52,735 bases of DNA, from sequence record PZ662386.1, one strand, 5' to 3'. Positions 8,404-43,904 of this stretch are shown here, piece by piece. Position 1 is the stretch's first letter. Every line of letters begins with the position of its first letter. A program made the position numbers and the translations under genes. This DNA comes from a phage. The notes beneath the pieces were generated by a model, which searched no databases, was not told where the DNA came from, and worked only from the letters and a program-made list of their open reading frames with translations.

Positions 8404-9852
8404 ATGGCAATTCCAATTTCCGACATCATCCAGGTCAACATTGCGGTAAGTCCTAACGCTGTTGCCGTGGAAGGTTTTGGTCCTCTTCTGTTTCTGAGCA
8501 AGGAGTTTACTCCAGCCCCAGGCGAAGCTGTTCCTGTTCGTCAATATACCAGCATGGCTGCTGTATCTGCTGATTTCCCATCTGGTGAAATTTATCAAGC
8601 TGCTCTGGCATGGTATTCTCAGAAACCAACTCCAAAGTATTTCCTCGTAGGTGCTATCACCCATGAAGATGTTACTCTGGCAACTCCTGGTACTGTAACC
8701 GCATCTTCTGCTGCGACTCTGGAAACCATTACTGCGTTAACTAATGGTGTTCTGTCTATCAATATTAACGGCGTTGATAAGTCTACTGCACCAATCAACT
8801 TCTCGTCCGCAGACGATTTTGCTGCTGCTGCATCAATGCTTAATGCTGCATTTGTTGCTGCCGACATTCCTGCAACTGTTACGCAGACCACAGGCACTTT
8901 CAAAATCACTACCAACGAAACTGGCGTAAATTCCATCATTGGTAACGTGTACGGTTCTGCTGCTGCGGCATTTAAACTTGACTCTGCTTCAAGCCCTGTG
9001 CATGTTCAAGGTACTGATGAAGTATCTATCGGCACCGACTTGAATGCAATCTTGAACTCTACGTTCGACTTCTTCTTTGTTGCTATTGACCGCAAATACC
9101 GTGGCAGTGCTGAGGGTAATAACCAGATGACTGTTGCCAAGTGGGCAGAAGCAAACGGCAAAGTATTTGGTTGGGCTGATAGCGACCCGCAGATTCTGGT
9201 TCCTGGTGCTGAATCTAGCTTTAAGCGTGCCAAAGAGCAGAACCTCCAACGCACTCTGTTGGTGTATGATGCGTCTGATAATGGCGACGAGTATCCAGAA
9301 GTTTCTATCCTGGGTCGTGCATCGACCGTCAACTTCAACGTTGCAAACTCTTCGCTCGTTCTGGCATTTAAACAAGGTCCAGCTATCAAGACTGCTGACT
9401 TGTCCCCGAACCAGCTTGCTGCACTTGAGCGTGTGAACGGTAACGCATTCATCAACGTTGGCGGGAACACTATGTTCTACAACGGCAAGATGGCTGACGG
9501 CACTTGGTTCGATACCGTGCAGGGCGTTTCTTGGTTAACCTCCAAGATTCGTGCTAACGTGTTCAACCTGTTCTACACCTCCACTACCAAGATTCCTTGG
9601 ACGGACACTGGTGTTGCACTGGTGAACCAGCAAGTAACCCTGGCTCTGGAACTGGCAGTGACAAATGGTCTGATTGCCCCAGGTTACGACAATGAAGGCA
9701 ACTTCTATCCAGATGGCTACAAAGTCTTGTCTACCGACTTGGCTCTGATGCAATCTCAGAAAGGTGCTCGTATCTGGGAAGGCACTTCCTTCATTGCAAT
9801 TGGCTCTGGCGCATTGCAGGGTGCAGTTATCTCTGGCAACTTCGTTCAGTAA
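8404..9852 (+). CDS. tail sheath protein
   Basis: 482-aa ORF followed by 151-aa tube gene and frameshifted chaperone; size and order typical of contractile tails. Confidence 0.65.
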   Translation: MAIPISDIIQVNIAVSPNAVAVEGFGPLLFLSKEFTPAPGEAVPVRQYTSMAAVSADFPSGEIYQAALAWYSQKPTPKYFLVGAITHEDVTLATPGTVTASSAATLETITALTNGVLSININGVDKSTAPINFSSADDFAAAASMLNAAFVAADIPATVTQTTGTFKITTNETGVNSIIGNVYGSAAAAFKLDSASSPVHVQGTDEVSIGTDLNAILNSTFDFFFVAIDRKYRGSAEGNNQMTVAKWAEANGKVFGWADSDPQILVPGAESSFKRAKEQNLQRTLLVYDASDNGDEYPEVSILGRASTVNFNVANSSLVLAFKQGPAIKTADLSPNQLAALERVNGNAFINVGGNTMFYNGKMADGTWFDTVQGVSWLTSKIRANVFNLFYTSTTKIPWTDTGVALVNQQVTLALELAVTNGLIAPGYDNEGNFYPDGYKVLSTDLALMQSQKGARIWEGTSFIAIGSGALQGAVISGNFVQ

Positions 9853-10788: not shown

Positions 10789-10964
10789 TATCCCTGTTCC
10801 CCGACATAAAATATTTTCTGCATCGTCCTATAATCGAAGACAGTTCTCTCTGCAAGTTACGTGAATTGCAAGATGGAACCTATTCGATTATGGACTTATT
10901 GCTATTCCACGACATTCTCGATTTGCGTAAGAAACTCGAACCAGTAGATGAAGACAATGGCTAA
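10686..10964 (+). CDS. tail assembly chaperone -1 frameshift extension (long form)
   Basis: -1 frame is open from the slippery heptamer T_TTT_TTC (10686-10692), directly after a -1-frame stop (10683-10685), to 10964, overlapping the tape-measure start. Confidence 0.5.
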   Translation, partial: FFQARARNQRTETIGGGGSIQAGRAEEFESGDSLVSLFPDIKYFLHRPIIEDSSLCKLRELQDGTYSIMDLLLFHDILDLRKKLEPVDEDNG

Positions 10965-13900: not shown

Positions 13901-14676
13901 ATGAGCAAGCTGGCTCGGTGGTAGAAGCGGGTAGAAACTCCGACTTTGCCGAAGGTATGGCCCAATCGGAAATGTTGCAGGGAAGCCGCGCACGGATGCT
14001 GCCGAGCTATAACGTGCCACAAAGTGTCTTATCTAATGGTGCTCCAATCTTCGAAGCTGGAAGTGCTGCACTTGACGGTGCTCGTACTGGATACAATCAG
14101 GCTCGTGAATTTGCTGGAAGTGTTTATGACTTTATCGCTCAGGAAGAATCCGGTGGTCGTGAATACAACAAGGATGGTTCTCGTGTAATAAGTCGCACTG
14201 GTGCTCGTGGGATAATGCAGATTCTACCTTCGACTGCCCGTGACCCAGGATTTGGAATCAGGCCGTCTGATGGAACTCCGGAAGATGATGCACGAGTTGG
14301 TCGTGAATACTATGACGCAATGTACAAGCGTTATGGCGACCACGAGAAGGCAATGGCTGCTTACACCGATGGTCCTGGCACTGTTGACAAAGCTGTTGAT
14401 AAGAATGGGTTGGATTGGCTTACTGCTGTTCCTGCACAGGCACAGAATCGCGTCAAAGCATTCCGTGAATGGTCCAAGTCTTCTAAATCTTTGGAAGAAG
14501 GTGCTACAGGGTTTACTCGCAATGGAATGTCATACGGTCAAACCCAAACTGTTGTTAATGTTAAGATTGATGCTAAGGTCAACAACCAGACTGCTTCTGC
14601 TACAGTTGCAATTCCTGGTGGTCAGACTGTGACTCAACAAATGAACATGAACAACGGTGCGCAACAAAGACGTTAA
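10948..14676 (+). CDS. tape-measure-position protein with lambda-exonuclease/YqaJ-like nuclease domain and C-terminal SLT lytic transglycosylase domain
   Basis: Follows the frameshifted chaperone; motifs QGSQEWLDFRKNYDITGS and SPDGLIGDDAIWEHKNP (lambda exo type), Gly-rich linker, SLT-like EESGG...GARGIMQI; Rho_N-like N-terminus. Confidence 0.7.
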   Translation: MKTMANQKDLMKLGVNELIALGSQSGLTFHAGMKKSHMVQQLSASAASGWLDTNAELMGGSFEDDSLITESLGDSSMISDAAHIAQVLSSAGYTEAFHAAMNGPSHHVEAVHAYMERLGVSTDDVWMHMPKPNPNLPQGSFNMLNAYMRDTLQGHQDIMPEIPGHYAGDIMAEYSTNRGNIADSYNYMAHMYVDREQYSNHEQYARDISRVAKRLERELPSAFKEVGYTSASNVGNKSAPHISYMDTLPQIGSPSIVSGIAHPRAPLNASGLPLGSYGSGINPEYSLTASLTGGTGWSEPSKALYSSISEAVKSAAKVYSGPKGMLNTRHEVSDRDMIMDSATRYTDLEEARSGYENLRSELADEPAYSASSVRAILENTYDKMDAEPISIPKMKGASQRVDKDSRSTSTDFTAQLGEATNWNSARMRREELAIANMDSAGFRDVSDYGTGRSESPVRFHDLEQGSQEWLDFRKNYDITGSTVGTFLGNNPYTRPWAGMIDKIGLSRSKEHSDFTKKMFADGHRTEEEARARVGKEFGFDIKQTGAITNDNYPAFMYSPDGLIGDDAIWEHKNPQRAGKFADLLKGDHPDYMDQIQFGLHVSGRSRALFSQTINDETRSQWIEKDEGWYERNRNRLDSVLGRLDAGREFVRNNAGLEREELIAGARSAMTGDGIWKDIRQRSTRGYSAAAGTPEDPFIGSRSSYNPTPSYSDYQPNFVMHEQNFPATTGNGDTGNDSMALSVKKGILAAQEENRQKGIGADADFDGKADSMGWNRERFDAANGGGYSGGGGGGRGGNFTSGGNYYDDYGRMGGSLAAGIAGGSIGSATNGVMQALMATPAGRMAAVGIGAIQIGNEAAEYMNDFIGNSLDAGVINPNEYSSMSQGLEMLGLNSQQAARLNQTTHSAYNTMLNGDPSAAVNIVRGSRGLLTIGDIRATGGDPVALARIMQERGKERGWSQARIAGAAEMAGLQGMARAYDRTEYSHEQAGSVVEAGRNSDFAEGMAQSEMLQGSRARMLPSYNVPQSVLSNGAPIFEAGSAALDGARTGYNQAREFAGSVYDFIAQEESGGREYNKDGSRVISRTGARGIMQILPSTARDPGFGIRPSDGTPEDDARVGREYYDAMYKRYGDHEKAMAAYTDGPGTVDKAVDKNGLDWLTAVPAQAQNRVKAFREWSKSSKSLEEGATGFTRNGMSYGQTQTVVNVKIDAKVNNQTASATVAIPGGQTVTQQMNMNNGAQQRR

Positions 14677-23625: not shown

Positions 23626-23967
23626 ATGGAACGATTATCCATTCAGATGTTTGTGGACCTAATGCACCAATATGGCGTATGGCATGGATTGCTGGCTGGC
23701 CTGACGGCTTTAATCCGTGGGGCATACGAGAGTGAGGGTTTAAGCAAAGCGTTGCTGGATGCGACGCTATGCAGCCTAATCGGCCTGTTTGCATTTCAGG
23801 TCGCTGGCACATTTGAGACTTTCACGACTAACGTCACTATGCAGCTAGTATTGGCTATCGTGATTGGTGTCATCGGTGCAAACCTCATTATCACAACTGT
23901 CAGGGAAAGTTTCTCTGGCGCAATCAAACAACTTAATCCTTTGACGTGGTTCAAGAAGGCACGATGA
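23626..23967 (+). CDS. holin (lambda S-like)
   Basis: 113 aa, 2-3 predicted TM helices; segment LIRGAYESEGLSKALLDATLCSLIGLF resembles lambda S; immediately before endolysin. Confidence 0.7.
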   Translation: MERLSIQMFVDLMHQYGVWHGLLAGLTALIRGAYESEGLSKALLDATLCSLIGLFAFQVAGTFETFTTNVTMQLVLAIVIGVIGANLIITTVRESFSGAIKQLNPLTWFKKAR

Positions 23968-23984
23968 AATGATAAGGAACTCGA

Positions 23985-24539
23985 ATGCTATCATTCAAAG
24001 TTCTTGCACTTCTGACAGCTTTAGTTCACATCAACGCCCCAGCTTCGGTTGGGGCAGTGAATTCTGCTATTACAGATTTTGCAAGTCATTCTTATTTAAA
24101 TGGAAGTCTGAAACTATCTTCTTCACAACGCAAAGAGCTAGAATGCTATACTAAAGTTATCTGGTATGAAGCTCGCGGAGAAGACAAACATGGAAAGATT
24201 CTGGTAGCTAATGTCGTCCGTAATAGAACAGAGTTCGGGAAGCCATTCGCTAACACCGTTTGTGATGTTGTCTATCAACGCAATCAATTTGCATGGACAC
24301 GAGAAGCAAAGAAGAAGAATGCTCAATGGAAGCATGTAGCAAAGATTAATTATGCCACAGAACAACAACAAGTTCTGGACACCATTAATGTTGCAATCTC
24401 TTTTGTATTATTTAATCAACCCTCTGTCACCAAAGCAACCCACTTTTGTACAGCATCGGAGAAGTGCAACTTCAAGAATGTTAAAGGTTTGGGACGTTAT
24501 GGTGGCCATAAATTCTATGAGTATCTAGGAAATCTGTAA
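23985..24539 (+). CDS. endolysin, SleB-like cell-wall hydrolase with N-terminal signal peptide
   Basis: N-terminal hydrophobic signal ([18 protein letters not shown]); SleB/Hydrolase_2-like [29 protein letters not shown]. Confidence 0.75.
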
Positions 24540-25639
24540 TGGCTTACACTACCTTTTCACAAACCAAGAATAACCAACTATTAGAACCAATGTTCTTTGG
24601 TCAGAACGTTAACGTTGCTCGATATGACCAACAGAAGTACAGCATCTTCGAGAAGTTAATCGAGAAGCAGTTATCTTTCTTTTGGCGACCTGAAGAGGTT
24701 GATGTTAGCCAGGACCGAATTGACTATGCTGGTCTGCCTGAATGCGAGAAGCACATCTTTACCAGCAATTTACGATACCAAATCCTGCTTGATTCCATTC
24801 AAGGACGTGGACCAACCACAGTTTTGCTGCCAATTGTGAGCATTCCTGAACTGGAAACTTGGATTGAAACTTGGTCATTCTCGGAGACAATTCACTCCCG
24901 TTCTTACACACATATTATTCGTAATATTGTTACAGACCCGAGTGTCATTTTCGACGAAATTGTGGAGAATGAGCATATTAAAATGCGTGCAATCGGCATA
25001 TCCCAATATTATGACGAACTTCAACACCTAACTTCCATGTGGCATCTGCATGAAGATGAAGTAGACCTTCGTGAGCTTAAGAAGAAGCTATATTTATGCC
25101 TCATGTCCATTAATGCACTGGAAGCAATCCGCTTTTATGTCAGCTTTGCTTGCTCATTTGCCTTCGCTGAACGCAAGTTAATGGAAGGAAATGCCAAGAT
25201 TATTCGCTTAATTGCTCGTGATGAAGCACTCCATTTGACTGGAACTCAACACATGTTGAATCTTCTTGCAAGCGGGGTTGATGACCCAGAAATGGCCGAA
25301 ATTGCCAAAGAATGCCGTCAAGAATGCCAAATAATGTTCGAAAATGTGGCCCAACAAGAGAAAGATTGGGCTGATTATTTGTTCAAAGATGGCTCAATGA
25401 TTGGCTTAAATAAGCAAATTCTGTGCGGATATGTCGAATATATCACAAATATTCGTATGCAAGCAGTTGGATTGGATGCTCCATTCAAAGGTGCCACTAA
25501 CCCGATTCCTTGGATTAACGCATGGTTGAATTCGGATGCTGTACAAGTTGCTCCACAGGAAACGGAGATTAGTTCGTACCTTGTCGGGCAGATTGACTCC
25601 GAAGTTGACACCAATGCTCTAGGCGGATTTGAACTATGA
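24539..25639 (+). CDS. nrdB: ribonucleotide reductase small subunit (class I beta)
   Basis: Iron-ligand motifs [16 protein letters not shown] and [13 protein letters not shown]; 366 aa. Confidence 0.9.
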
Positions 25640-25871: not shown

Positions 25872-25962
25872 CGCCGAAATTTGTTCGAACAGTTGTCTGA
25901 CTATGAAATAATTTTTTTTTTATAATTTTTTTTTTTATTTTCAATATTGCTACAGAATTAAT

Positions 25963-26040
25963 GAGACTAGAATTCGTAACAAAGCTACGAGACTCGAATT
26001 GTTACGATATTAACGAGACTCAATCTGTGACAATATTATA
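25963..26040 (+). repeat. three tandem 26-bp iteron-like repeats (GAGACT-NGAAT core)
   Basis: GAGACT at 25963, 25989, 26015 with 26-bp period; adjacent poly-T tracts at 25911-25943. Confidence 0.55.
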
Positions 26041-26218: not shown

Positions 26219-26236
26219 ATATTAGTTGGACGTGAA
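26219..26236 (+). promoter_or_regulatory. conserved promoter-like motif (candidate phage-RNAP promoter)
   Basis: ATATTAGTTGGACGTGAA, member of the ACATTAGTTGGATGTGAA family; 67 nt upstream of RNAP gene. Confidence 0.4.
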
Positions 26237-26302: not shown

Positions 26303-28243
26303 ATGACTACTATCACCACTCAAACTATCAAATCCGTTGTTCCTGCTATCACTGCTCTGGTATACCGTGCCAAAGAGAAACAGAACTATATGCAGCCTCA
26401 GACTTGTGCTATTGCTGCCTTAGCCATCTTCAAGATGATGACGTCTTTCACTCGTGATGACGTTGTTCCTGCCATCGCGATGGTTGAACTGGCTTCTGCT
26501 TCTATTGCTGATGCCAACCGTTATAACAACGATTTGAAAGCAATGCACTATGTTGACCCAGCTATCAACCTCATTGGTCTGGCTAAGCACTTTGGCTTCA
26601 TCACCATGAACGAAGACAAGTCATTCCAACAGACTGACACATGGGTTGAACTGGTTACAACCAAAGACACCGCAGTGCCATTCACTGAGCGTGTTACATC
26701 TGAATCTCGTCGCAAGCCTTTCGTTAAAGGTGGCAAGGTTAAGCCATCTAAGACTCTGAAAGCTGCAATCGAATTCCTGCAAGATACTGAGTACCATGTG
26801 GAGACTGAGATGGTTCGCATCATCCAGTCCATGCTTGAGCAACGTACTTATGGTGGCTTGCAGATGCCAGAAGCAATCCAGACTGAACTCCATGTTTGGA
26901 ACAATGCTGTAGCAATGATGAATCAGGACACACTGTATTCTGACTACTTTGCTGATAACCGTGGTCGCCTGTATCATGTAGCATGTGCTGGTCCTAACCC
27001 ACAATCATCTGACTTTGCTCGTTGCTTGTATTCTCACAATGTTGAGAACATCGTTAAGAAGTTTAACGAAGATGGTTCTACTACCATTGCATACAATATG
27101 TTCATGGCAGAACTGGAAGACATTTCTGGTGGTGAATGGTGCACTGCTAAGCGTTTGACTTATGTTGCTCAGAATCCTGCTGGTTCACTTGCTCGCATGA
27201 TGAACATGCCTAAAGCTGAACGTCCTTCTAAGCCATTCACTTATGTTCGTCTGGCTCTGGATTGGTTCAAGTTTGAGACTACAGGTGAATGCGATTCTCG
27301 TGTAGGCTTTGGCTTAGATGCTAAATGCTCTGGTACTCAATATCTGGCATTCATTGCTGGCAATATGGAAATGGCTCGTGCAACAGGTCTGGTTGATTCT
27401 GAGACTAAAGCATCTGACCCATACCAGTTGAGTCTTCGTGAACTGTTGAAGCTGCTGGACAAGTCTTCAATGAAGCCATCTCCTGAAATCATGGAAGAGT
27501 TCTTGAATCCGAAAGCTGGTCGTAAGTTTATCAAAACTCCGTACATGGCTATTCAATACGGTGGTGGTAAAGCTGCATTAACTGGTTCTTCTGACTTCAT
27601 TAGCTACATGACAGAAGCTCTCCAGATTCCAGTTGAGAAAGCTGAGGCATTTGCTGAACTGTGTGTGGAAGCAATCCATAACGCATTGGGTGCCAAGATT
27701 AACATGTTCATCGAGAAAGCTGCTGATGCTGCATACAACCGTTGTGTTGAACTCAACAAAGAGTACATCACATACCGTCACACTGACGGTCAGGTTGTAA
27801 TGAAGCCTTGCTTCCCATCCCGTGAAATCTGTGAGGCATTCAGCATTCGTGTTGACTCTCAAACTCGTGTTATCTTTGGTCAGATTCAGGAGAATAAGCC
27901 TTGGACCATTCGTGAATCCAATCCAACTAAAGAAGAATTCAAGCGTACTTTCGTTGTTAACTACATTCAAGGTATTGACGCACTGGTTGCTCGTACTGTT
28001 GCAGTTAAAGCTAAAGAAGCTGGCCTTCGTGGTTTCACTTCAATCCATGATTGTTTCCGTTGCTGTTTGGCAGATGCTCCACGTATGATGGAAGTTATTC
28101 GTGCAGCATATGTTGAAATCTTTGTAACCAACAATCAATTCGAGAATCTGTCTAAGCAACTCGGTGGCATTCAGATGTATCATGAGAACATCGTAACCGA
28201 AGAGCTTCTGATGAGCGAACACGCTTACTACTTCTGTCAATAA
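26303..28243 (+). CDS. single-subunit RNA polymerase (T7-like, compact)
   Basis: T7 RNAP-like motifs DNRGRLY...NPQ, DAKCSGTQY, KTPYMAIQYGGG, SIHDCF; only 646 aa. Confidence 0.8.
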   Translation: MTTITTQTIKSVVPAITALVYRAKEKQNYMQPQTCAIAALAIFKMMTSFTRDDVVPAIAMVELASASIADANRYNNDLKAMHYVDPAINLIGLAKHFGFITMNEDKSFQQTDTWVELVTTKDTAVPFTERVTSESRRKPFVKGGKVKPSKTLKAAIEFLQDTEYHVETEMVRIIQSMLEQRTYGGLQMPEAIQTELHVWNNAVAMMNQDTLYSDYFADNRGRLYHVACAGPNPQSSDFARCLYSHNVENIVKKFNEDGSTTIAYNMFMAELEDISGGEWCTAKRLTYVAQNPAGSLARMMNMPKAERPSKPFTYVRLALDWFKFETTGECDSRVGFGLDAKCSGTQYLAFIAGNMEMARATGLVDSETKASDPYQLSLRELLKLLDKSSMKPSPEIMEEFLNPKAGRKFIKTPYMAIQYGGGKAALTGSSDFISYMTEALQIPVEKAEAFAELCVEAIHNALGAKINMFIEKAADAAYNRCVELNKEYITYRHTDGQVVMKPCFPSREICEAFSIRVDSQTRVIFGQIQENKPWTIRESNPTKEEFKRTFVVNYIQGIDALVARTVAVKAKEAGLRGFTSIHDCFRCCLADAPRMMEVIRAAYVEIFVTNNQFENLSKQLGGIQMYHENIVTEELLMSEHAYYFCQ

Positions 28244-33519: not shown

Positions 33520-33537
33520 ACATTAGTTGGATGTGAG
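33520..33537 (+). promoter_or_regulatory. conserved promoter-like motif
   Basis: ACATTAGTTGGATGTGAG; 71 nt upstream of the SSB-tail gene. Confidence 0.4.
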
Positions 33538-33608: not shown

Positions 33609-33965
33609 ATGGCACAATATTCAGATGTAAACACTGGCATCATCGGTCCTAACGGCTTCAAGAAAGACCCAAAACATCCTGACATTCGTGGACGTATTAA
33701 CGTTGACGGAATCTGGTATTGGGTGTCTGGTTGGAACAAGCAAGCAAATGGCAATGAATTTACCTCGCTGGCACTCACCATTATGACCCAAGAGCAGGTT
33801 GATGAAATGATGCGTAAGCGTGAAGAGAAAGCTAAAGCCAAAGCTCAACCTCAAGCCGCTGCACAACAGCAACAGCAACGTCAGCAACCTTCTGCTGCAC
33901 AGCAACAGCAGGGTAATTACAATCCGAACGAGCCGAAAGACTTCGACGACGACATTCCATTCTAA
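33609..33965 (+). CDS. small protein with bacterial SSB-type C-terminal tail (DFDDDIPF)
   Basis: Last 8 residues DFDDDIPF preceded by a Gln/Ala/Pro-rich linker; N-terminal ~75 aa possibly a small OB-like domain. Confidence 0.6.
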   Translation: MAQYSDVNTGIIGPNGFKKDPKHPDIRGRINVDGIWYWVSGWNKQANGNEFTSLALTIMTQEQVDEMMRKREEKAKAKAQPQAAAQQQQQRQQPSAAQQQQGNYNPNEPKDFDDDIPF

Positions 33966-34984: not shown

Positions 34985-35031
34985 TTAACAGAGGTCATTC
35001 CACTTCGAGTGGCCTCGATTAATTATCAGAG

Positions 35032-35301
35032 GTGCCTATGGAAGTATGGTTTGAAAGATACATTTACAAACATGGTGTGCGAGGTAAATCAAGATACTCA
35101 GTAACATTCCTTACGGTGAGGGTGACAAAGGCTGTTCGCTCAAGCAAGGCCTACTATGTCAGAGAGAGGCTGCGTAAAGCTACCATAACAGTTGTCCCGA
35201 AATACATGAAGAATGGCAGGAAATATGAAAACTCTGGGGTTTTAGCACGCTCAGAGAACTATGCACTTAATCTGTTTAAGGAAGTATATAATGAAGTTTA
35301 A
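35032..35301 (+). CDS. hypothetical basic protein
   Basis: 89-aa Lys/Arg-rich ORF with RBS. Confidence 0.4.
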   Translation: MPMEVWFERYIYKHGVRGKSRYSVTFLTVRVTKAVRSSKAYYVRERLRKATITVVPKYMKNGRKYENSGVLARSENYALNLFKEVYNEV

Positions 35302-35644
35302 GTATATTGTAACCTACGTCATAGCACTAATTGTTTTCGGCGTCTTAACCTTTAAATCTGAAGCCAAACAGGTTAAATTTGGTTGCGACGGCTTTGATGT
35401 AACTTTGGACCAGTTTGAAAACAGACCTATTGTAGCATCAATCACATTTGAGCCAGGTACTTGGGTCGAAGTTCCGGAAAGTGGGGATTCAAACACCATT
35501 CACCTATTCAATATAGTCAATAGTAAACTTGCAGTTATGGGTATGGACCATCATGGCTCACTATTTCTGCAAATTTATCGCGATTATGACTTCTATCAGG
35601 CCCACCAGCCTCAACACAGTTTAAGATGTTTGGAGAGAAAATGA
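35291..35644 (+). CDS. hypothetical secreted/membrane protein
   Basis: N-terminal signal/TM segment (IVTYVIALIVFGVLTF); RBS AAGGAAG. Confidence 0.45.
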   Translation: MKFKYIVTYVIALIVFGVLTFKSEAKQVKFGCDGFDVTLDQFENRPIVASITFEPGTWVEVPESGDSNTIHLFNIVNSKLAVMGMDHHGSLFLQIYRDYDFYQAHQPQHSLRCLERK

Positions 35645-35874
35645 CGTCATCCGAATTTACCATTGATGGAGTACCGTACTTACTTGAATCCAGTTGCGAA
35701 TATCGTCACTGGTCAGTAATTCGCGACCGAGTAGTCAAATTCTTGGAGCGAGTAGGGAAAGATGCAGCTATTCTGACTACAGCCACAGTAGAAGGGACAA
35801 CCGAAATCAATCGGGAGCTTGTATCTTTTAAATTAACCATCAACCCAACAGGAAATCCATTCCGTGAAAGTTGA
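35641..35874 (+). CDS. hypothetical protein
   Basis: ATGA-coupled 77-aa ORF. Confidence 0.4.
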   Translation: MTSSEFTIDGVPYLLESSCEYRHWSVIRDRVVKFLERVGKDAAILTTATVEGTTEINRELVSFKLTINPTGNPFRES

Positions 35875-36133
35875 AGAACTGGCTGACCAACTTAAGGCAG
35901 CAAAACGAGAGTCTGCAAATCAATCAGAACGCGTTGCAAAACTGAAAGGGCAAGGCTCAACGTCTGAAGAAATCCAGTTATTTACAGATAATGTCTGGTT
36001 TTCAATGAATCGTGCACAATTTATCGAGATTCAGGAAGAACGTCTTACTGAACTGGAGAAGCGTGTAGAAACACTTGAGAGCTTGCTTGTAACACTGCAA
36101 GAAACTCTGGACCAGGAACTGAAAAATGTCTAA
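35864..36133 (+). CDS. hypothetical coiled-coil protein
   Basis: 89-aa ORF, GTG start. Confidence 0.4.
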   Translation: MKVEELADQLKAAKRESANQSERVAKLKGQGSTSEEIQLFTDNVWFSMNRAQFIEIQEERLTELEKRVETLESLLVTLQETLDQELKNV

Positions 36134-36542
36134 CGTTAAGCTGGGCCAACGCTCCCTTGACCGACTCAAAGGTGTAAATCCTTCATTGGTGGCAGTTTTC
36201 AAGCGTGCATGTGAAACAATGCCGTTTGATGTAACTGTTCTTGAAGGATTGCGTACTTATGAGCGTCAACAAGAGCTTTTAAAGCAAGGTGCAACCAAAG
36301 TTTCAGTTAGCCGACACATGTCAGGCAATGCTTTAGACATTGCACCATATCCGATTGACTGGAATGACCTCGAACGATTCAAAGTTTTAGCTCATCATAT
36401 ATTCAAAGCTGCAAAAGAGCTTGGAATTACCATTCGTTGGGGTGGGAACTGGAGCCGTATTGATGAAAATCAGCCGTATCCACCACTTGCACCAGGTAAG
36501 AAGAAGCTGATTGATATGCCGCACTTTGAACTTCCAGCATAA
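36126..36542 (+). CDS. peptidase M15 family peptidoglycan hydrolase (VanY / L-Ala-D-Glu peptidase-like)
   Basis: Zinc-ligand pattern SRHMSGNALD ... DMPHFE. Confidence 0.65.
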   Translation: MSNVKLGQRSLDRLKGVNPSLVAVFKRACETMPFDVTVLEGLRTYERQQELLKQGATKVSVSRHMSGNALDIAPYPIDWNDLERFKVLAHHIFKAAKELGITIRWGGNWSRIDENQPYPPLAPGKKKLIDMPHFELPA

Positions 36543-36550: not shown

Positions 36551-36841
36551 ATGGAGCATCCGATGGAATATCAGGAGATACCGAAAGAGTTAGAGCGTAT
36601 GCAATCTCGCACATCTCGTGCAGAGGCAGAACTCCACCAGCATTTGTCAAACTATGTGCACGATTCCCGAAAACTTAGGTCCGAAATTGCGGTTGATGGT
36701 TGTTGCTATCTAGTAACATACGACGAGAAGACCGCCATCTTAGACGTATTAGTAAAGAGTGGAAAAGAGCGAATCGAACAGCTCAAAATCCTTAATGCGG
36801 AACTTCAAGGTATGTGGGAGAAACTCAATGCAAAACGATAA
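36551..36841 (+). CDS. hypothetical protein
   Basis: 96-aa ORF. Confidence 0.4.
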   Translation: MEHPMEYQEIPKELERMQSRTSRAEAELHQHLSNYVHDSRKLRSEIAVDGCCYLVTYDEKTAILDVLVKSGKERIEQLKILNAELQGMWEKLNAKR

Positions 36842-37388
36842 CATTACTCAAGCAGTAGAACAGCTTAAGTCCTGGCGTAGAGATGAAACCTTATTGGTTC
36901 GTTTCTACACAGACGTCTACAAAGGCGAAAGCAGTTCTGAATTTGTAGATGCGTGGATTGATGGCCTGTCTTGGCGTCACTATGATTTCGACATGCGGGA
37001 TTATTTGCATGAAGAATACGGCATTGAATATCCTGAAACTGGTACATACGACATTCTGGAATCAAGCGAAGAAGACGTTACAGAAGTTTGCTTTGCTAAC
37101 GGCCTGTTCAGCATTCGTAAGTACGATAAGTTCAATGAACTGCTCGTTGACACCGACTTGGATGTAATTCTTGCTGCATTCCGTAGTGGTGATATCGATA
37201 TTTTCACTGTAGACGATTTGAATGACAAGGTTGTTTGCCGATGTGATTCAATTGCGGATTATTTCCAGCAATATGATGGCATAGAAGTTCCAGACCATCT
37301 TCGTCCATATATTGATTGGGATGCAGTTGCAAGAGATTACGGAAGCGATTACACTTTCTCCGAAGGGATACTATTCTCAAATGCGTGA
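36828..37388 (+). CDS. hypothetical strongly acidic protein
   Basis: ATG at 36828 with GGGAGA RBS; Asp/Glu-rich throughout. Confidence 0.45.
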   Translation: MQNDNITQAVEQLKSWRRDETLLVRFYTDVYKGESSSEFVDAWIDGLSWRHYDFDMRDYLHEEYGIEYPETGTYDILESSEEDVTEVCFANGLFSIRKYDKFNELLVDTDLDVILAAFRSGDIDIFTVDDLNDKVVCRCDSIADYFQQYDGIEVPDHLRPYIDWDAVARDYGSDYTFSEGILFSNA

Positions 37389-37620: not shown

Positions 37621-37689
37621 TTCCAGGCGGGTTTCTTCGAAGTGCCAAGCGGGTTTTGTACTCGCATTGGCCTTCGGCTTTAGTCTGAA

Positions 37690-37707
37690 ACATTAGTGGG
37701 ATTTGAT
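37690..37707 (+). promoter_or_regulatory. conserved promoter-like motif (variant)
   Basis: ACATTAGTGGGATTTGAT preceded by TCTGAAAC, as in other copies. Confidence 0.35.
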
Positions 37708-40025: not shown

Positions 40026-40364
40026 ATGGCTAAGATTGTAACCGTAACTCAGTACGAAGCTAACGATGGTTCACTGTTCCTGACCGAAGCAGAGTGTAAT
40101 GCACATGACTTCAAACTGGAAAACGGTGCTAAAATTGAGAAAGCTGCCGAAGCGTACCTGAACACCGTTGGCGCTATCGACCGTTCTCGCTCCATGCAGA
40201 AGAACACCATCGAGCAGTTCCTGGCATTCTACCTGCCGTGGGTTGAAGCTGGTGAGCCGGAAGTTGAGCGTACTAAGTTTGATACTCCGAAAGAAGCTAA
40301 AGTTGCTGACGCAGGTGTTGCCGAAGCTGCCGAAGCTGCTGTTGAAGAAGCTCCGGTATTCTAA
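40026..40364 (+). CDS. small acidic protein with high-expression codon usage
   Basis: 112 aa, Glu/Asp/Ala-rich C-terminus; first gene after a promoter-like motif. Confidence 0.5.
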   Translation: MAKIVTVTQYEANDGSLFLTEAECNAHDFKLENGAKIEKAAEAYLNTVGAIDRSRSMQKNTIEQFLAFYLPWVEAGEPEVERTKFDTPKEAKVADAGVAEAAEAAVEEAPVF

Positions 40365-41268
40365 GGTGCCAATGGCAAACTTGAGAGACTAAGCTAAATC
40401 GATCTGGCATGCACTGGAATATTTCCGGTGCTGCCTTGAACCCACTCCAGAGTGAGTGAGTGGGCTTCAATGAGCATTCTTGTGATTAGAGTTGGGAGGT
40501 AGGCCGATGCCCAAGCTCATGGCCCAGGCAAGAGTGTTCATTGAAGTAGTTTTCTGAGTCTTACGACGGGCCTAAACTGCCTGAAGTTATTGCGACTGTT
40601 TTATTCATTTAAAATAAATGCAAATGATTCTGAAATGCGAGTTGCGGCTTAATTAAATTTAAGTCCTCTCCGTGGTCTTCCAATCCCACGTAACCAAATT
40701 TGGCGCATTGTGGCTTCGAGATGTGATTAATAAATCGGAGCAATAATTAATTTGTATTCTGCGATGCAATGCAGGCTTAAGTCCCCAGTGCGCGTGGGGA
40801 TGTGACAGAGTACAAACTTAATTATGCAGTTGGATATTTCTAGAGGACGGACGAGCACACTGGAATGTCTTCAATTGGTTTAGTGTGAGAAGCTGTGCCA
40901 ATATGAAACGTAACTCCTTGGGGAAGTGCTCCTCTGGATTTCCCTCCACACAGGAATCTCAAGCCTGTGGCAGCGACTTCGAAGCTGCACTGCGTAACCT
41001 AAATTCACCCTAAAGTGAGTTGCCCTGAGTATGGAAATAAACTGCTCATAACCGATGGTATCTACAAAGGTAGATTAAATCAGGTTGCCTGTTGGTACTT
41101 GGGTTCAACACCTGCTTGCACTCGCAAAGTAGTGCCTCGTACCTGAGATGAAGTGAGTCGGGACCATCAATCCCACGTTATGTCAAAACACAGTAGGCGA
41201 CTCACGGATTCTACAAGCCTCGCAGTTCGGGAAAACCTGCGTTATCAAAACCCCCCCCACTCATATTT

Positions 41269-41361
41269 GGACGAGTAGCTCAGAAGGTCTGCTCCAGAGC
41301 TTAGTCAGGTAGAGCAATCTGTTCGACAGATGTGTCGTTGGTTCGAATCCAACCTCGTCCA
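41269..41361 (+). tRNA. tRNA-like gene, non-canonical (93 nt; possible UCG anticodon)
   Basis: Perfect 7-bp acceptor stem GGACGAG/CTCGTCC, TAGCTCAG...AGGTAGAGC D-arm interrupted by ~23 nt, canonical T-arm GTTGG TTCGAAT CCAAC; anticodon arm ambiguous. Confidence 0.4.
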
Positions 41362-41394
41362 CCTACTTTAATAATCCGCAACACTGGAGTCCTT

Positions 41395-41535
41395 ATGGAT
41401 TTTGATGCACTTGATAACTTAGACTTCGGTGCTGCCGAAGAAGCAATTGAAGAACTTAAGAAGAAGCAGGACGAAGAAGCAATCGTTCCTGGTGAGGGCG
41501 ATAACGACTGCTCAAGCGGTGCTTGCGCCATCTAA
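41395..41535 (+). CDS. small acidic protein
   Basis: 46-aa ORF with GGAG RBS immediately after the tRNA-like element. Confidence 0.3.
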   Translation: MDFDALDNLDFGAAEEAIEELKKKQDEEAIVPGEGDNDCSSGACAI

Positions 41536-41543
41536 GGTGATTT

Positions 41544-41780
41544 ATGCAACAGCTTAAATCAATAGTTCTTGGCGTCCTGACTGCATTTGGTATTCTAATT
41601 GCAGTGTTCCTCAAAGGCAAAAGCTCAGGCAAAGCCGAGGAGCGTCAGGAAGCCACAGAGAAGCAACTAGATTCATTAAAAGAATCTATCGAGATTAAAT
41701 CGCATGTTCAGAAAGAAGTGTCTAGCAGTTCTGATAGCAATGTCGATAGTGAGTTGCTCTCAAAGTGGGTTCGTAAGTGA
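41544..41780 (+). CDS. i-spanin-like protein (Rz-like)
   Basis: N-terminal TM helix then charged coiled-coil region; the lipoprotein ORF is embedded in its 3' end. Confidence 0.45.
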   Translation: MQQLKSIVLGVLTAFGILIAVFLKGKSSGKAEERQEATEKQLDSLKESIEIKSHVQKEVSSSSDSNVDSELLSKWVRK

Positions 41781-41913
41781 TTATTGCTTAATTGCACAAC
41801 CAATCTATTTGGATATTGCAGAAGTGAAAATCTTATCACGCGAAACCAAAACACAGATTTTAGTCCACAATGAAACGTGGGCACAAAAGTGTTCTCAACT
41901 TACCCGACAGTGA
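41704..41913 (+). CDS. o-spanin-like lipoprotein (Rz1-like)
   Basis: Signal peptide with lipobox-like IVSC; overlaps the 3' end of the upstream gene in another frame. Confidence 0.45.
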   Translation: MFRKKCLAVLIAMSIVSCSQSGFVSDYCLIAQPIYLDIAEVKILSRETKTQILVHNETWAQKCSQLTRQ

Positions 41914-42290
41914 GTGAACAAATGCTCGCCAACGCATTTCATTTGGCAGTCCGGTACGGGACTTTAAACACACGTATATCATAGTCGAGGGAGTGTGCGA
42001 CTTTAAATAACGAGACTCTAGCAACTTGTTGCGATGGTGGTGTAAGCCCACGCGTTTGGAAGCAGGACTCCAACTCAAACAAACCTGCAAATTGCTCTGG
42101 GCATAACAATTGAAATTGCTGCCTCGCATTGAACGCGAGAAAGTTCAGGTAGTCACTTCCTAGAACAGTGGCCGGGAACAGACCTAGACAAAGTGCTTGA
42201 GAACGTTAGCTCTGTCTTGCCAGCATTAATGGCACGTTGGCCGCGTAAAGGCCACAGCGTCTGACCAACGTATCGGTCAACTAATTCAAT

Positions 42291-42358
42291 GGGATTTTCG
42301 TATGTACGGGCTTGACCGTGGTGAAACGACCTGACTGGTTCGATTCCAGTAAATCCCC
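42291..42358 (+). ncRNA. tRNA-like element (68 nt, truncated cloverleaf)
   Basis: Perfect 7-bp acceptor-like stem GGGATTT/AAATCCC, T-arm ACTGG TTCGATT CCAGT, one internal hairpin. Confidence 0.3.
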
Positions 42359-42474
42359 CGAACAATGGATTCGTAGAGTTAATGAAACCTGCACAACGGG
42401 CTAGGTGAAACATCTGAGGCCGACCGTGTAATTGTGAACGTGGAGTTCACCGAATCCACCAAATCAATGGGCTA

Positions 42475-42541
42475 GTGCAAATGTCAGTCACTAGAAGATG
42501 TGTTGCAAAACGTCTTCCATGATGTGCAAAGTGTCAGTCAC
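42475..42541 (+). repeat. direct repeat GTGCAAA(T/GT)GTCAGTCAC x2
   Basis: Copies at 42475-42491 and 42524-42541; flanked by repeated CCACCAAAT. Confidence 0.5.
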
Positions 42542-42967
42542 GTGCCCACCAAATACGGAGACGCTCGAACTTCCAACCACCGCTGGGGAAGTAGAAGTTT
42601 GTAGAACTCCGCCATTTTCCTAACAGTTATGCCTCTGTTCAAAAGGCTCATGTAAGCGTCTGGCATACCGTAGCGATACGGCTTAGTTGCGCTGATTGTG
42701 ATGTGTCGAAAGAAAGTTCAGGCTTTCGTTTGAGTTCCTCCTCATCTCGAAGTTAGCTGTATTCAAAATACAGACTATGTTCCTATTCACATGAAATATG
42801 CAAGTCAGGGTTCTTAATGTTCAAACATGATGCGAGCATTAAGCGGGTTTATACTTTCCCCGATGGTCCCCATAAACAAGGTTGATTCACTTGGGCGGTT
42901 CGAATCAAATTTAATAAGTGTTTTGTAATAGTCAGGGCACTTACTTAAATTTTAACTGGAGAGAAAC

Positions 42968-43198
42968 ATGAAAACTGCTGAAATTGCCGAAGAGATTTAC
43001 AAGGCCGTAATAGCCAGCCAAATTACAAGTGAAGTTCTGCACATGAATATTGAAGAAGTTCGCAATGCCTTTGGTGGTTTTGCAATCTTGTCAATAGAAG
43101 CTGCGGAAGCACTGACAAGCACGTACAATCAACGCGAATATGAAAAGCGTTCTGTACTAAATGCGTCGATGAAAGAAATTCAGGCGTCATTAAAATAA
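42968..43198 (+). CDS. hypothetical protein
   Basis: 76-aa ORF with GGAGAG RBS, first gene of replication block. Confidence 0.45.
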   Translation: MKTAEIAEEIYKAVIASQITSEVLHMNIEEVRNAFGGFAILSIEAAEALTSTYNQREYEKRSVLNASMKEIQASLK

Positions 43199-43253
43199 TA
43201 CCATTATCATGGTGCGGAGCTAATTATCTCCCACCATATGAACCGGAGAGCAA

Positions 43254-43904
43254 ATGATTACTGCAACACTCGTTGACCACATGGGCAGCGACCTTACAAC
43301 TGTTAATGCTGCACGAGCTTCTTATGGTGCAGAGTCCCACGAGATGACATTGCGCGACGAAAAGCTCATTGAATTTCTCGCAAGGCATAAGCACAATACA
43401 CCTTTTGCCCATGCGTATGTAACATTACGCTGCACTGCACCAATCTTTGTTGCACGCCAACTTGGTAAGCACCAGGTGGGCTTTCGTTGGAACGAAGTTA
43501 GCCGTCGTTACAAAGATGGCGAAGCAATCGAAATTGAATGCTTTGTACCTGATGTGGTGTTTGGTCGTCCTGAAAAGTTGATGACTCAGACTGCACAACC
43601 ATTGCCACAGGATTTTGCTGACGATATTCACTATCGCATGGAAAGCCACAACAAGGCTTGCATTGCAGAATATGAAACGTTAATTGGTTTGGGGATTGCT
43701 CCAGAGCAAGCCCGAATGGTGTTGCCACAATCCATGATGACTACATGGATTTGGACTGGCTCTTTACTGGGCTGGGCCAACATGTACAAGCAACGCTCTA
43801 CAGAGCACGCCCAATATGAGGCACGTTTGTTTGCAAAAGAAGTCAATAAAATTATGTCAGAGTTGTTTCCTGTTTGCTGGGAGGCACTCATTAAACAGGA
43901 ATAA
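43254..43904 (+). CDS. ThyX-like flavin-dependent thymidylate synthase homolog (divergent motif)
   Basis: ThyX-like core FVARQLGKHQVGFRWNEVSRRY, with the canonical RHR apparently replaced by KHQ. Confidence 0.55.
   Translation: MITATLVDHMGSDLTTVNAARASYGAESHEMTLRDEKLIEFLARHKHNTPFAHAYVTLRCTAPIFVARQLGKHQVGFRWNEVSRRYKDGEAIEIECFVPDVVFGRPEKLMTQTAQPLPQDFADDIHYRMESHNKACIAEYETLIGLGIAPEQARMVLPQSMMTTWIWTGSLLGWANMYKQRSTEHAQYEARLFAKEVNKIMSELFPVCWEALIKQE

What the first reader, a model, noticed from the sequence alone, without database searches (positions are those of the whole stretch)
36126..36542. Second peptidoglycan hydrolase (M15 peptidase) in the early region, and a dispersed lysis system
Besides the holin and signal-peptide SleB-like endolysin at 23626-24539, an M15-type zinc peptidase (SRHMSGNALD...DMPHFE) lies among early genes with no holin nearby. 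The Rz/Rz1-like overlapping pair is about 17 kb away (41544-41913). A second, early-expressed wall hydrolase could be a virion-associated entry enzyme or an alternative lysin.
Basis: partly seen in the sequence, partly recalled or inferred. Interest (0 to 1): 0.4.

Follow-up and report, generated by a model that had tools for sequence, protein, structure and literature searches.

The report
Second, cytoplasmic endolysin of a chasevirus
The gene is a real T5-type zinc peptidase that cuts bacterial cell-wall peptides, but it is already annotated as an endolysin in near-identical E. coli phages, so the finding is correct and largely ordinary.

Summary
The window is a nearly complete, circularly permuted genome of a Carltongylesvirus (Chaseviridae, about 94% nt identity to phage ST32).

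ORF 36126-36542 (+, 138 aa) is real. It is an M15C L-alanyl-D-glutamate peptidase with an intact H64/D71/D130/H133 site, and a confident model matches ChiX, EndoRB49, LysECD7 and EndoT5. It has no signal peptide or membrane segment. It lies in a phage-RNA-polymerase ("middle") transcription unit with SSB and an ArdA-like gene.

The holin, the signal-peptide SleB-like hydrolase and the overlapping spanin pair are also confirmed.

A virion/entry role is unlikely, because the 1242-aa tape-measure-like protein already carries an SLT domain.

Most likely the M15 is a soluble, holin-dependent endolysin that acts together with the Sec-exported SleB-like enzyme. Sister genera keep holin+SleB but fill the early/middle region with other signal-less peptidases: CHAP/TIGR02594 in PM1 (same SSB-ArdA slot) and M15_3 in Myduc (just upstream of SSB). 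A second enzyme therefore seems to be selected for.

The same pairing occurs in T5-like phages and in Certrevirus and has been remarked on in print.

ST32's identical-length protein (99.3% identical) is already annotated "endolysin". No experiment assigns roles to the two enzymes. Low novelty, modest interest.

The parts
36126..36542 (+). M15C (Peptidase_M15_4) L-alanyl-D-glutamate peptidase, 138 aa, soluble, pI 9.5. Predicted zinc ligands H64, D71 and H133; catalytic D130; conserved W109.
36453..36512 (+). Variable loop (residues 110-129) between W109 and the D130-x-x-H133 motif, at the position of the Ca2+-binding loop of EndoT5. Here it is Pro/Lys-rich and 6 aa longer than in the GJ1/Mangalitsa allele. 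The C-terminal half of the gene is mosaic.
   Evidence: Ca-loop position from PMC10487532
33520..33536 (+). Perfect match to the phage-RNA-polymerase promoter consensus. Presumed start of the transcription unit holding SSB, the M15 gene and the ArdA-like gene.
   Evidence: 9 matches in the window against 0.19 expected
33609..33965 (+). Single-stranded-DNA-binding protein, first gene of the unit
34991..35016 (+). Terminator-like hairpin inside the unit (possible attenuation upstream of the M15 gene)
   Evidence: a terminator is annotated at the equivalent place in SA91KD
35291..35644 (+). Protein of unknown function with one N-terminal membrane or signal segment (PHROG 35432), three genes upstream of the M15 gene
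35864..36133 (+). 89-aa acidic coiled-coil-like ORF whose stop overlaps the M15 start codon
36551..36841 (+). 96-aa ORF of unknown function directly downstream
36828..37388 (+). ArdA-like anti-restriction protein (PHROG 14321, E=1e-50)
37621..37690 (+). Stable hairpin (-29.1 kcal/mol, z = -3.7) ending the unit, followed by three phage promoters (37690, 37831, 37968)
   Evidence: a terminator is annotated at the equivalent place in SA91KD
23626..23967 (+). Class I holin of the lambda S family (Phage_holin_3_1). Strongly hydrophobic windows near residues 39-61 and 65-96 here; the Myduc homologue is annotated as having three TMDs.
23985..24539 (+). SleB-like (Hydrolase_2) cell-wall hydrolase, 184 aa, with an N-terminal Sec signal sequence (conserved A-x-A|S) and the EARGE catalytic motif
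41544..41780 (+). i-spanin (N-terminal membrane segment, PHROG 1026)
41704..41913 (+). o-spanin (lipobox IVSC, PHROG 1275), overlapping the i-spanin gene in another frame
14125..14406 (+). SLT lytic-transglycosylase domain (aa 1060-1153) of the 1242-aa tape-measure-like protein 10948-14676: the likely virion-borne wall-piercing enzyme

Best explanation
The ORF encodes a soluble zinc metallopeptidase of subfamily M15C. [quoted passage not shown]

Proposed mechanism:
1. The gene is transcribed by the phage's own RNA polymerase from the promoter at 33520, together with SSB and an anti-restriction gene.
2. The protein accumulates harmlessly in the cytoplasm, because it has no export signal.
3. It reaches the wall only when the late, lambda-S-type class I holin (23626-23967) permeabilises the inner membrane.
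4. There it cleaves stem peptides, while the Sec-exported SleB-like enzyme (23985-24539) attacks the wall from the periplasm.
5. The spanin pair (41544-41913) then disrupts the outer membrane.

Shown here: family, fold, intact catalytic residues, absence of a signal, promoter context, conservation, and replacement by analogous enzymes in sister genera. Inferred: bond specificity, holin dependence, timing, and the division of labour with the SleB-like enzyme.
For: Family and fold:
- Pfam, PHROG and PDB sequence matches.
- AlphaFold model with pLDDT 92.7. Top Foldseek hits are ChiX 5opz, EndoRB49 23ri, LysECD7 8q2g and EndoT5 2mxz, all probability 1.00.

Active site:
- H64, D71, D130 and H133 are invariant in 27 homologues of 53-86% identity.
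- They align with the H-x6-D and D-x-x-H residues of EndoT5 and of the RB49-type Phi1 protein; W109 aligns with the conserved Trp (residue roles from PMC10487532).

Location and expression:
- No 19-residue window exceeds 1.03 on the Kyte-Doolittle scale, so the protein is predicted cytoplasmic.
- The phage promoter lies upstream.

Selection:
- dN/dS is about 0.09 against SA91KD, though only 8 substitutions are involved.
- The organism tallies for the M15 and SleB-like searches match: 38 Escherichia, 22 Erwinia, 8 Yersinia and 2 Pantoea records in each, and the accessions listed in both tables coincide.
- Where the M15C gene is absent, another signal-less peptidase of a family used as an endolysin elsewhere is encoded in the early/middle region. 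PM1/PP101/Okapia carry a CHAP/TIGR02594 hydrolase in the same SSB-to-ArdA slot. Myduc carries a Peptidase_M15_3 just upstream of its SSB gene. All keep holin+SleB.

Holin type: it belongs to the large-hole lambda S family (hole size from my own knowledge of lambda S105), which suits release of a cytoplasmic enzyme.

Precedent: in T5 the homologous enzyme sits directly behind the holin.
Against: - No experiment on this protein or on any chasevirus orthologue was found.
- The gene is not next to the holin, whereas the SleB-like gene is. The literature calls holin plus 'SAR endolysin' the lysis module of this phage group (PMC6989608), so the M15 could be dispensable.
- Promoter and terminator assignments rest on consensus matches only.
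- The dN/dS estimate rests on very few substitutions.
Confidence: 0.6

Rival explanations
1. Redundant back-up lysin. The exported SleB-like enzyme with the adjacent holin does essentially all the lysis, and the M15 peptidase contributes little under laboratory conditions. For example, it might matter only on hosts or growth states whose wall resists the SleB-like enzyme.
For: - The holin and SleB-like genes are adjacent and very conserved: 97-100% aa identity in 28 of the 81 matching records, which include GenBank/RefSeq duplicates.
- Published descriptions treat that pair as the lysis module.
- The M15 is more variable and mosaic: two alleles, with the C-terminal half only 49% identical between phages whose N-terminal halves are identical.
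Against: - The early/middle region is never left without such an enzyme in the genomes examined. A non-homologous (PM1) or distantly related (Myduc) peptidase replaces the M15C rather than the gene being lost.
- Catalytic residues are invariant.
- The same two-enzyme pairing recurs in T5-like phages and Certrevirus.
Confidence: 0.2
2. Cytoplasmic host-takeover role. Made from mid-infection without an export signal, the peptidase cleaves cytoplasmic L-Ala-D-Glu-containing molecules (UDP-MurNAc-peptides, recycled muropeptides). It thereby shuts down wall synthesis or recycling long before lysis.
For: - It is expressed with SSB and the anti-restriction gene rather than with late genes.
- It has no signal sequence.
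- The substrate bond exists in cytoplasmic precursors (established peptidoglycan biochemistry, my own knowledge).
Against: - No evidence of such activity exists for any M15C endolysin.
- T4 e and T7 gp3.5 are also made before late genes without such a role (my own knowledge).
- Cytological profiling of a Carltongylesvirus reported no single cell-wall-inhibitor-like signature (PMC13340011).
Confidence: 0.07
3. Virion-associated entry enzyme, packaged with the particle to open the wall locally during DNA injection.
For: Only that it lies far from the holin and is expressed before late genes. The PHROG name of the PM1 replacement ('baseplate hub subunit and tail lysozyme') superficially suggests a tail enzyme.
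Against: - The tape-measure-like protein already has an SLT domain.
- The gene is outside the structural module.
- It is a bare catalytic domain with no structural or attachment domain.
- It is not in the 4HA13 virion table.
- Homologues in T5 and RB49 are proven or accepted endolysins.
- The PM1 protein is a free-standing 158-aa CHAP domain, whose close relatives sit next to holin or Rz genes in other phages.
Confidence: 0.05
4. Analogue of T7 lysozyme (gp3.5). In a phage that encodes a T7-like RNA polymerase, a wall hydrolase encoded among middle genes mainly binds and down-regulates the phage polymerase, with lysis as a side job.
For: There is a positional analogy. Chaseviruses encode a single-subunit RNA polymerase, and the hydrolase lies in the DNA-metabolism/middle region, as T7 gene 3.5 does (my own knowledge).
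Against: - The fold is different: LAS/M15, not Amidase_2.
- The enzyme is replaced by an unrelated CHAP fold in PM1, which could hardly keep a specific polymerase-binding surface.
- The C-terminal half is freely swapped between phages whose other genes are similar.
Confidence: 0.04

Closest known systems
Phage T5 endolysin EndoT5 (L-alanyl-D-glutamate peptidase, MEROPS M15C; PDB 2mxz/8p3a)
   Same: - Same fold and the same four catalytic or zinc-binding residues, plus the conserved Trp.
- Similar size, about 137 aa.
- No signal peptide.
- The T5 group also carries a separate signal-peptide SleB-like protein elsewhere in the genome.
   Different: - About 39% identity.
- The T5 gene directly follows its holin, whereas here the holin is followed by the SleB-like gene.
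- The T5 Ca2+-binding loop motif (DWNASGD...) is replaced by a Pro/Lys-rich loop, so Ca2+ regulation is not expected (inference).
EndoRB49 / EndoRB43 / LysECD7 (M15C endolysins of T4-like phages; PDB 23ri, 8q2g)
   Same: - Best sequence matches among solved structures, E about 1e-23.
- Single-domain globular enzymes.
- Encoded away from the holin and spanin genes, as in T4-type genomes (PMC6139136).
   Different: These have a short connection between the conserved Trp and the D-x-x-H motif, whereas this protein has a 20-residue loop.
ST32 gp24 / phiEcoM-GJ1 gp21 (annotated endolysins of Carltongylesvirus)
   Same: - Orthologues. ST32 is 99.3% identical over 138 aa at the same genomic position.
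- Both were already included in a published M15C alignment (PMC10487532).
   Different: The GJ1/Mangalitsa allele is 131-132 aa with a different C-terminal half. None has been tested experimentally as far as the searched literature shows.
Serratia marcescens ChiX (L-Ala-D-Glu endopeptidase of the ChiW/X/Y/Z secretion system; PDB 5opz)
   Same: Best structural match, TM 0.74-0.77. It is a cytoplasmic M15C enzyme released by a holin-like protein.
   Different: ChiX is a bacterial chromosomal gene used for non-lytic chitinase secretion, not phage lysis (my own knowledge).
Certrevirus CB7 lysis genes (PMC7344957)
   Same: - A signal-peptide SleB-like protein lies next to a holin candidate, with a T5-like M15 peptidase elsewhere and spanins elsewhere.
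- The M15 is swapped for a hydrolase of another family in other members of the genus.
   Different: It is an unrelated 140-kb myovirus lineage, and its holin candidate is a two-TMD class II type.
Dispersed lysis genes of T4 (e, t, pseT.2/3) and T7 (3.5, 17.5, 18.5/18.7)
   Same: Endolysin, holin and spanins are encoded far apart, and the endolysin is made before late genes (for T4; T7 from my own knowledge).
   Different: Those phages have one dedicated soluble endolysin, whereas this phage has two free wall hydrolases plus a tail-borne SLT domain.

Membership tests
MEROPS M15C / Pfam Peptidase_M15_4 (LAS-fold L-alanyl-D-glutamate peptidases) | Sequence match above the curated family threshold | tested here: met
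   PF13539 scores 36.1 bits against a cut-off of 25; PHROG 465 E=3.3e-54.
MEROPS M15C / Pfam Peptidase_M15_4 (LAS-fold L-alanyl-D-glutamate peptidases) | LAS fold | tested here: met
   The model has pLDDT 92.7. Foldseek probability is 1.00 to 5opz, 23ri, 8q2g, 2mxz and 2vo9.
MEROPS M15C / Pfam Peptidase_M15_4 (LAS-fold L-alanyl-D-glutamate peptidases) | Zinc ligands H-x6-D and the C-terminal H, plus the catalytic D of the D-x-x-H motif | tested here: met
   H64, D71, D130 and H133 are invariant in 27 homologues and align with the EndoT5 residues (roles).
MEROPS M15C / Pfam Peptidase_M15_4 (LAS-fold L-alanyl-D-glutamate peptidases) | Conserved Trp next to the active site (W114 in T5, W109 in RB49) | tested here: met
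   W109 is invariant in alignment A3 and at least 90% conserved in A1.
MEROPS M15C / Pfam Peptidase_M15_4 (LAS-fold L-alanyl-D-glutamate peptidases) | Three-dimensional zinc-ligand geometry and actual Zn2+ binding | not testable with these tools
   Model coordinates are not exposed. This needs metal analysis or a crystal structure.
MEROPS M15C / Pfam Peptidase_M15_4 (LAS-fold L-alanyl-D-glutamate peptidases) | [quoted passage not shown] | not testable with these tools
   Requires muropeptide analysis of digested sacculi.
Canonical (holin-dependent, cytoplasmic) endolysin | No signal peptide, SAR or membrane domain | tested here: met
   The maximum 19-residue hydropathy is 1.03, with no hydrophobic segment.
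Canonical (holin-dependent, cytoplasmic) endolysin | A holin able to release folded cytoplasmic protein is encoded by the same phage | tested here: met
   Phage_holin_3_1 (lambda S family) scores 33.2 bits against a cut-off of 23.8. The Myduc homologue is annotated 'class I, three TMDs'. Hole size itself was not tested.
Canonical (holin-dependent, cytoplasmic) endolysin | Required for, or contributing to, host lysis | not testable with these tools
   Needs a knock-out or amber mutant and lysis curves.
EndoT5-type Ca2+-activated subgroup | Acidic Ca2+-binding loop (DWNxxGD...) after the conserved Trp | tested here: not met
   The loop here is NWSRIDENQPYPPLAPGKKK. The T5-like motif is present only in more distant homologues such as P0104-P0120.
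Virion-associated peptidoglycan hydrolase | Encoded in the structural module and/or fused to a structural (tape measure, hub, spike) domain | tested here: not met
   It is a stand-alone 138-aa domain in the SSB/ArdA unit. The SLT domain of the 1242-aa tail protein fills that role.
Virion-associated peptidoglycan hydrolase | Detected in purified virions | not tested
   There are no data for this phage. The 4HA13 table of proteins with at least 50% coverage lacks it.
T7 lysozyme (gp3.5) type RNA-polymerase regulator | Amidase_2 / PGRP fold that binds the phage RNA polymerase | tested here: not met
   The fold is LAS/M15, with no Amidase_2 match. Polymerase binding was not testable.

The most novel reading that the evidence does not exclude
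The two enzymes form an obligate two-key lysis device that has evolved repeatedly.
- The SleB-like enzyme is exported by Sec with a cleavable signal. It sits latent in the periplasm because, like Bacillus SleB, it works poorly on normal peptide-bearing, cross-linked glycan.
- The holin-released cytoplasmic peptidase (M15C here, CHAP in PM1, M15_3 in Myduc) de-crosslinks or trims the stem peptides. It thereby both times and licenses the glycan cleavage.

This would explain three things: why a Sec-secreted wall hydrolase is not prematurely lethal, why a second enzyme is always encoded, and why the pairing recurs in Chaseviridae, T5-like phages and Certrevirus with the gene next to the holin swapped.
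Probability: 0.15. Interest if true: 0.5.

Novelty: already known. Interest (0 to 1): 0.2.

Why it matters
The gene itself adds nothing new. It is an orthologue (99.3% identical) of a protein already annotated as an endolysin and already used in a published M15C alignment.

What may be worth a small experiment is the pattern around it. Every Cleopatravirinae genome examined keeps three things: a holin, a Sec-exported SleB-like enzyme, and an interchangeable signal-less peptidase. The same pair occurs in T5-like phages and in Certrevirus.

Nobody has shown which enzyme does what, or how a secreted wall hydrolase is kept from killing the cell early. An answer would refine the holin-endolysin-spanin model for Gram-negative hosts. 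It would also guide the choice of enzyme pairs for enzybiotic use.

Tried and rejected
- The Pantoea phage PA1 paper ('Chaseviridae' endolysin plus helper protein) looked relevant, but its endolysin is a 217-aa lysozyme-like protein related to FelixO1/rV5-type phages. It is not a homologue of either enzyme here.
- Aeromonas phages with about 51% identical M15 (for example 14AhydR10PP) were checked as possible Nefertitivirinae. The genome has an integrase and P2-like tail genes and is unrelated. Whether Nefertitivirinae carry these enzymes remains untested.
- The original phiEcoM-GJ1 genome paper (PMC2223254) is not held, so its proteomics could not be checked.
- The Mangalitsa and Myduc announcements say nothing about lysis genes.
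- The Carltongylesvirus 'Tiny' cytology paper has no data on wall hydrolases or transcript timing.
- Rfam at gathering thresholds found nothing in the window, and ARAGORN found no tRNA.
- A sigma-70 promoter scan of 25.5-43 kb gave fewer hits than shuffled sequence (28 against 36.8), so it says nothing about host-polymerase transcription of the M15 gene.
- The weak Pfam hit to His_biosynth (E=0.018) is chance. It probably explains the odd 'imidazoleglycerol phosphate synthase' label in phage SKA49.
Full report
**What the window is.**
- A 3-kb stretch around the finding matches Escherichia phage ST32, EcoM1, SA91KD, DE15 and about 40 other records at 85-95% nucleotide identity.
- These are classified as Chaseviridae, Cleopatravirinae, Carltongylesvirus: small myoviruses that encode a T7-like single-subunit RNA polymerase.
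- All large ORFs are on the + strand.
- The window is a circular permutation of the published gene order. It starts at the terminase, runs through the head and tail genes to holin, SleB-like hydrolase and RNR beta subunit (24539-25639), then continues with the RNA polymerase (26303-28243), small genes, SSB, the M15 gene, an ArdA-like gene, the spanins and the replication genes.
- In the physical genome, which is linear with terminal repeats of about 3 kb, the M15 gene is about 10 kb from the left end and holin/SleB are at the right end.

**The observation.**
- ORF 36126-36542 (+, ATG, 138 aa) is present, and both quoted motifs are there.
- It matches Pfam Peptidase_M15_4 above the curated cut-off and PHROG 465 'endolysin' at E=3e-54.
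- It matches the sequences of four solved M15C enzymes at E=5e-24 to 9e-18: 23ri (EndoRB49), 8q2g (LysECD7), 2mxz (EndoT5) and 5opz (Serratia ChiX); names.
- An AlphaFold model built on 27 homologues is confident (mean pLDDT 92.7, pTM 0.86). Its best PDB neighbours are exactly these proteins, followed by the Listeria Ply500 and Bacillus LysB4 L-Ala-D-Glu peptidase domains and then VanXY/LdcB enzymes.
- H64, D71, D130 and H133 are invariant across homologues down to 53% identity. They align with the H-x6-D and D-x-x-H residues of EndoT5 and of the RB49-type Phi1 protein. W109 aligns with the tryptophan shown to be critical in EndoT5 and EndoRB49 (PMC10487532).
- I could not measure ligand distances because model coordinates are not exposed.
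- The protein has no hydrophobic segment (maximum 19-residue hydropathy 1.03) and is basic, pI 9.5.

- 23626-23967 is a lambda-S-family holin: Phage_holin_3_1 at 33.2 bits, PHROG 126. It has strongly hydrophobic segments. The Myduc homologue is annotated 'class I, three TMDs'.
- 23985-24539 is a Hydrolase_2/SleB-like protein, with the EARGE motif aligned to the Bacillus SleB catalytic domain.
- 41544-41780 and 41704-41913 are an overlapping i-/o-spanin pair (PHROG 1026 and 1275). The first has an N-terminal membrane segment and the second an IVSC lipobox. The phiEcoM-GJ1 pair is already listed in the spanin census (PMC6139136).

**Transcription context.**
- SA91KD carries annotated phage-polymerase promoters, and their consensus is ACATTAGTTGGATGTGA.
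- It occurs nine times on the + strand of the window, against 0.19 expected: at 14708, 26219, 28360, 29221, 33520, 37690, 37831, 37968 and 39932.
- The M15 gene therefore lies in a unit that starts at 33520 (a perfect match). The unit contains SSB, several small ORFs, M15 and the ArdA-like gene. It ends at a stable hairpin (37621-37690, -29.1 kcal/mol, z = -3.7), just before the next promoter cluster.
- A terminator-like hairpin at 34991-35016 may attenuate transcription upstream.
- Host-type promoter matches and a strong terminator bracket only the RNA polymerase gene.
- The gene is thus better described as 'middle' than 'early'. This is inference from consensus matches.
- The holin and SleB-like genes lie downstream of the promoter at 14708, with the baseplate and fibre genes.

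**Is it a virion enzyme?** Probably not.
- The 1242-aa tape-measure-like protein (10948-14676) carries an SLT lytic-transglycosylase domain at residues 1060-1153. That is the usual place for a wall-piercing activity.
- The M15 protein is a bare catalytic domain encoded outside the structural module.
- The published table of 4HA13 virion proteins lists neither hydrolase. The table shows only proteins with at least 50% coverage, and it includes SSB, so it is weak evidence.

**Comparative evidence that a second enzyme is wanted.**
- Searches with M15 and with SleB-like against 50,697 phage records give matching organism tallies: 38 Escherichia, 22 Erwinia, 8 Yersinia and 2 Pantoea records in each. 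The accessions listed in both tables coincide.
- Pectobacterium phage PM1 (Suwonvirus) has the SleB-like gene but no M15 (tblastn best E=3.2). In the same slot, between SSB and the anti-restriction gene, it encodes a 158-aa CHAP/TIGR02594 hydrolase. PP101 and Okapia have the same protein. Its relatives sit beside holin or Rz genes in other phages.
- Proteus phage Myduc (Myducvirus) has a 121-aa Peptidase_M15_3 protein in its early/middle region, just upstream of its SSB gene. It is only 29% identical over 72 residues to the window protein. Myduc has holin plus SleB-like at the right end.
- So three different signal-less stem-peptide-type hydrolases occupy this part of the genome, while holin and SleB-like stay put. 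This argues for selection on the activity and against a fold-specific moonlighting role such as T7-lysozyme-like binding of the RNA polymerase.
- dN/dS against SA91KD is low for all three genes (0.09, 0.14 and 0.02), but few substitutions are involved.

**The SleB-like partner.**
- Some records call it a 'SAR endolysin' (Mangalitsa, DE15, 4HA13), and so does PMC6989608. Myduc's annotators wrote 'No TMD - endolysin (not SAR)'.
- The alignment of 21 homologues shows a short basic N-terminus, a hydrophobic core of 10-13 residues and a conserved A-x-A|S site. The most distant members have only MKKFMCLLFLLFSFQ|S. Myduc has MHYFRAILLSILLTFGASVHA|E. The T5-group homologue has MKAALLLIAALTYSFNSHA|T.
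- This looks like an ordinary cleavable Sec signal. In the window protein the uncharged stretch is 20 residues with hydropathy 1.64, so SAR behaviour cannot be excluded. Either way it is exported without the holin.
- How a secreted wall hydrolase is kept from acting early is unknown. The CB7 authors report that their homologue is toxic when expressed in E. coli.

**The same pairing elsewhere.**
- T5-like phages carry the M15C endolysin directly behind the holin and a signal-peptide SleB-like protein tens of kb away. For example, MK907271.1 and PP738782.1 appear in both hit lists. This was noted for Salmonella phages, with the remark that it is unknown which enzyme is used (PMC11180984).
- In Certrevirus CB7 the SleB-like gene overlaps a holin candidate. 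A T5-like M15 peptidase lies elsewhere and is replaced by a lysozyme-like enzyme in other members of the genus (PMC7344957).
- Neither the two-enzyme arrangement nor the dispersal of lysis genes (as in T4 and T7) is new.

**Best explanation and its limits.**
- I read the ORF as a functional, soluble, holin-dependent L-Ala-D-Glu endopeptidase made from the middle transcription unit. It would act at lysis together with the exported SleB-like enzyme and the spanins (confidence 0.6).
- Shown: family, fold, catalytic residues, lack of export signal, promoter context, conservation and analogous replacement.
- Inferred: bond specificity, holin dependence, timing, and whether it is the main or an auxiliary lysin.
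- Rivals: a dispensable back-up (0.2), a cytoplasmic role on wall precursors (0.07), a virion enzyme (0.05) and a T7-lysozyme-like regulator (0.04).

**Novelty and score.**
- ST32 gp24 is 99.3% identical and annotated 'endolysin'. The GJ1 and ST32 proteins appear in a published M15C alignment. Both hydrolases are annotated in several records.
- I found no experimental work on either chasevirus enzyme.
- The finding is correct but already known. Interest is 0.2.
- The most novel reading not excluded is an obligate two-key device. In it the holin-released peptidase licenses a pre-exported, latent SleB-like glycan-cleaving enzyme, and the device has evolved repeatedly in three phage lineages (probability about 0.15).

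Noticed in passing
window 10948-14676 (aa 468-604 = nt 12349-12759; aa 1060-1153 = nt 14125-14406): The 1242-aa tape-measure-like protein (annotated 'tail fiber' in ST32 and SA91KD) has an SLT lytic-transglycosylase domain. Unexpectedly, it also has a YqaJ-like viral recombinase/exonuclease domain (E=4e-13) in its middle.
   Followed up: partly
window 36126-36542; alignment A1: The M15 gene is mosaic. The Mangalitsa protein is 100% identical over residues 1-85 but only 49% over 86-138. Some metagenomic homologues show the reverse, 61-65% against 83-85%. The breakpoint precedes the loop that is the Ca2+-binding loop in EndoT5. Two alleles circulate, of 138 aa and 131-132 aa.
   Followed up: partly
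L004 (PM1) 8426-8902; L006 (Myduc) 8689-9054: Sister genera replace the M15C gene with a CHAP/TIGR02594 hydrolase (PM1, PP101, Okapia; same SSB-ArdA slot) or a Peptidase_M15_3 protein (Myduc; just upstream of SSB). Both keep holin plus SleB-like.
   Followed up: yes
window 23985-24080; A2; L007 2418-2963; L005 2932-3381: The SleB-like protein's N-terminus looks like a cleavable Sec signal (conserved A-x-A|S) rather than a SAR domain. Public records disagree: 'SAR endolysin' in Mangalitsa, DE15 and 4HA13, against 'not SAR' in Myduc.
   Followed up: partly
window 35291-35644: A conserved protein of unknown function (PHROG 35432) has one N-terminal membrane or signal segment and a C-terminal domain of about 95 aa. 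It lies three genes upstream of the M15 gene. That architecture is seen in some antiholins and exclusion proteins, but there is no homology evidence.
   Followed up: no
window 26219-26235, and 37690, 37831, 37968: A phage-polymerase promoter match (2 mismatches) sits just upstream of the RNA polymerase gene itself, next to host-type promoter matches at 25897-26039. Three promoter matches are also clustered within 300 bp after the M15 unit.
   Followed up: no
window 41298-41353 and 40400-41300: ARAGORN finds no tRNA, although ST32 is described with a tRNA-Arg and a tRNA-Arg is annotated under the GJ1 match to this region. Rfam gives only a sub-threshold tRNA match (27.9 bits against 29; model positions 9-63) just upstream of the spanins. 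About 0.9 kb before it has no + strand ORF of at least 60 aa, and 40300-43300 as a whole is about 92-96% conserved in relatives.
   Followed up: partly
records OL741059.1 (SKA49) and PP952070.1 ('Staphylococcus phage Pel53'): SKA49 labels the M15 orthologue 'imidazoleglycerol phosphate synthase', probably from a chance His_biosynth hit (E=0.018 here). A record named as a Staphylococcus hyicus phage is 97% identical to these coliphage proteins, so its host label looks doubtful.
   Followed up: no
L008 839-1905; L005 2932-3381; T5-like phages carry the mirror-image arrangement: the M15C endolysin directly behind the holin, and a signal-peptide SleB-like protein far away among early genes. Certrevirus CB7 has the chasevirus-like arrangement.
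   Followed up: partly
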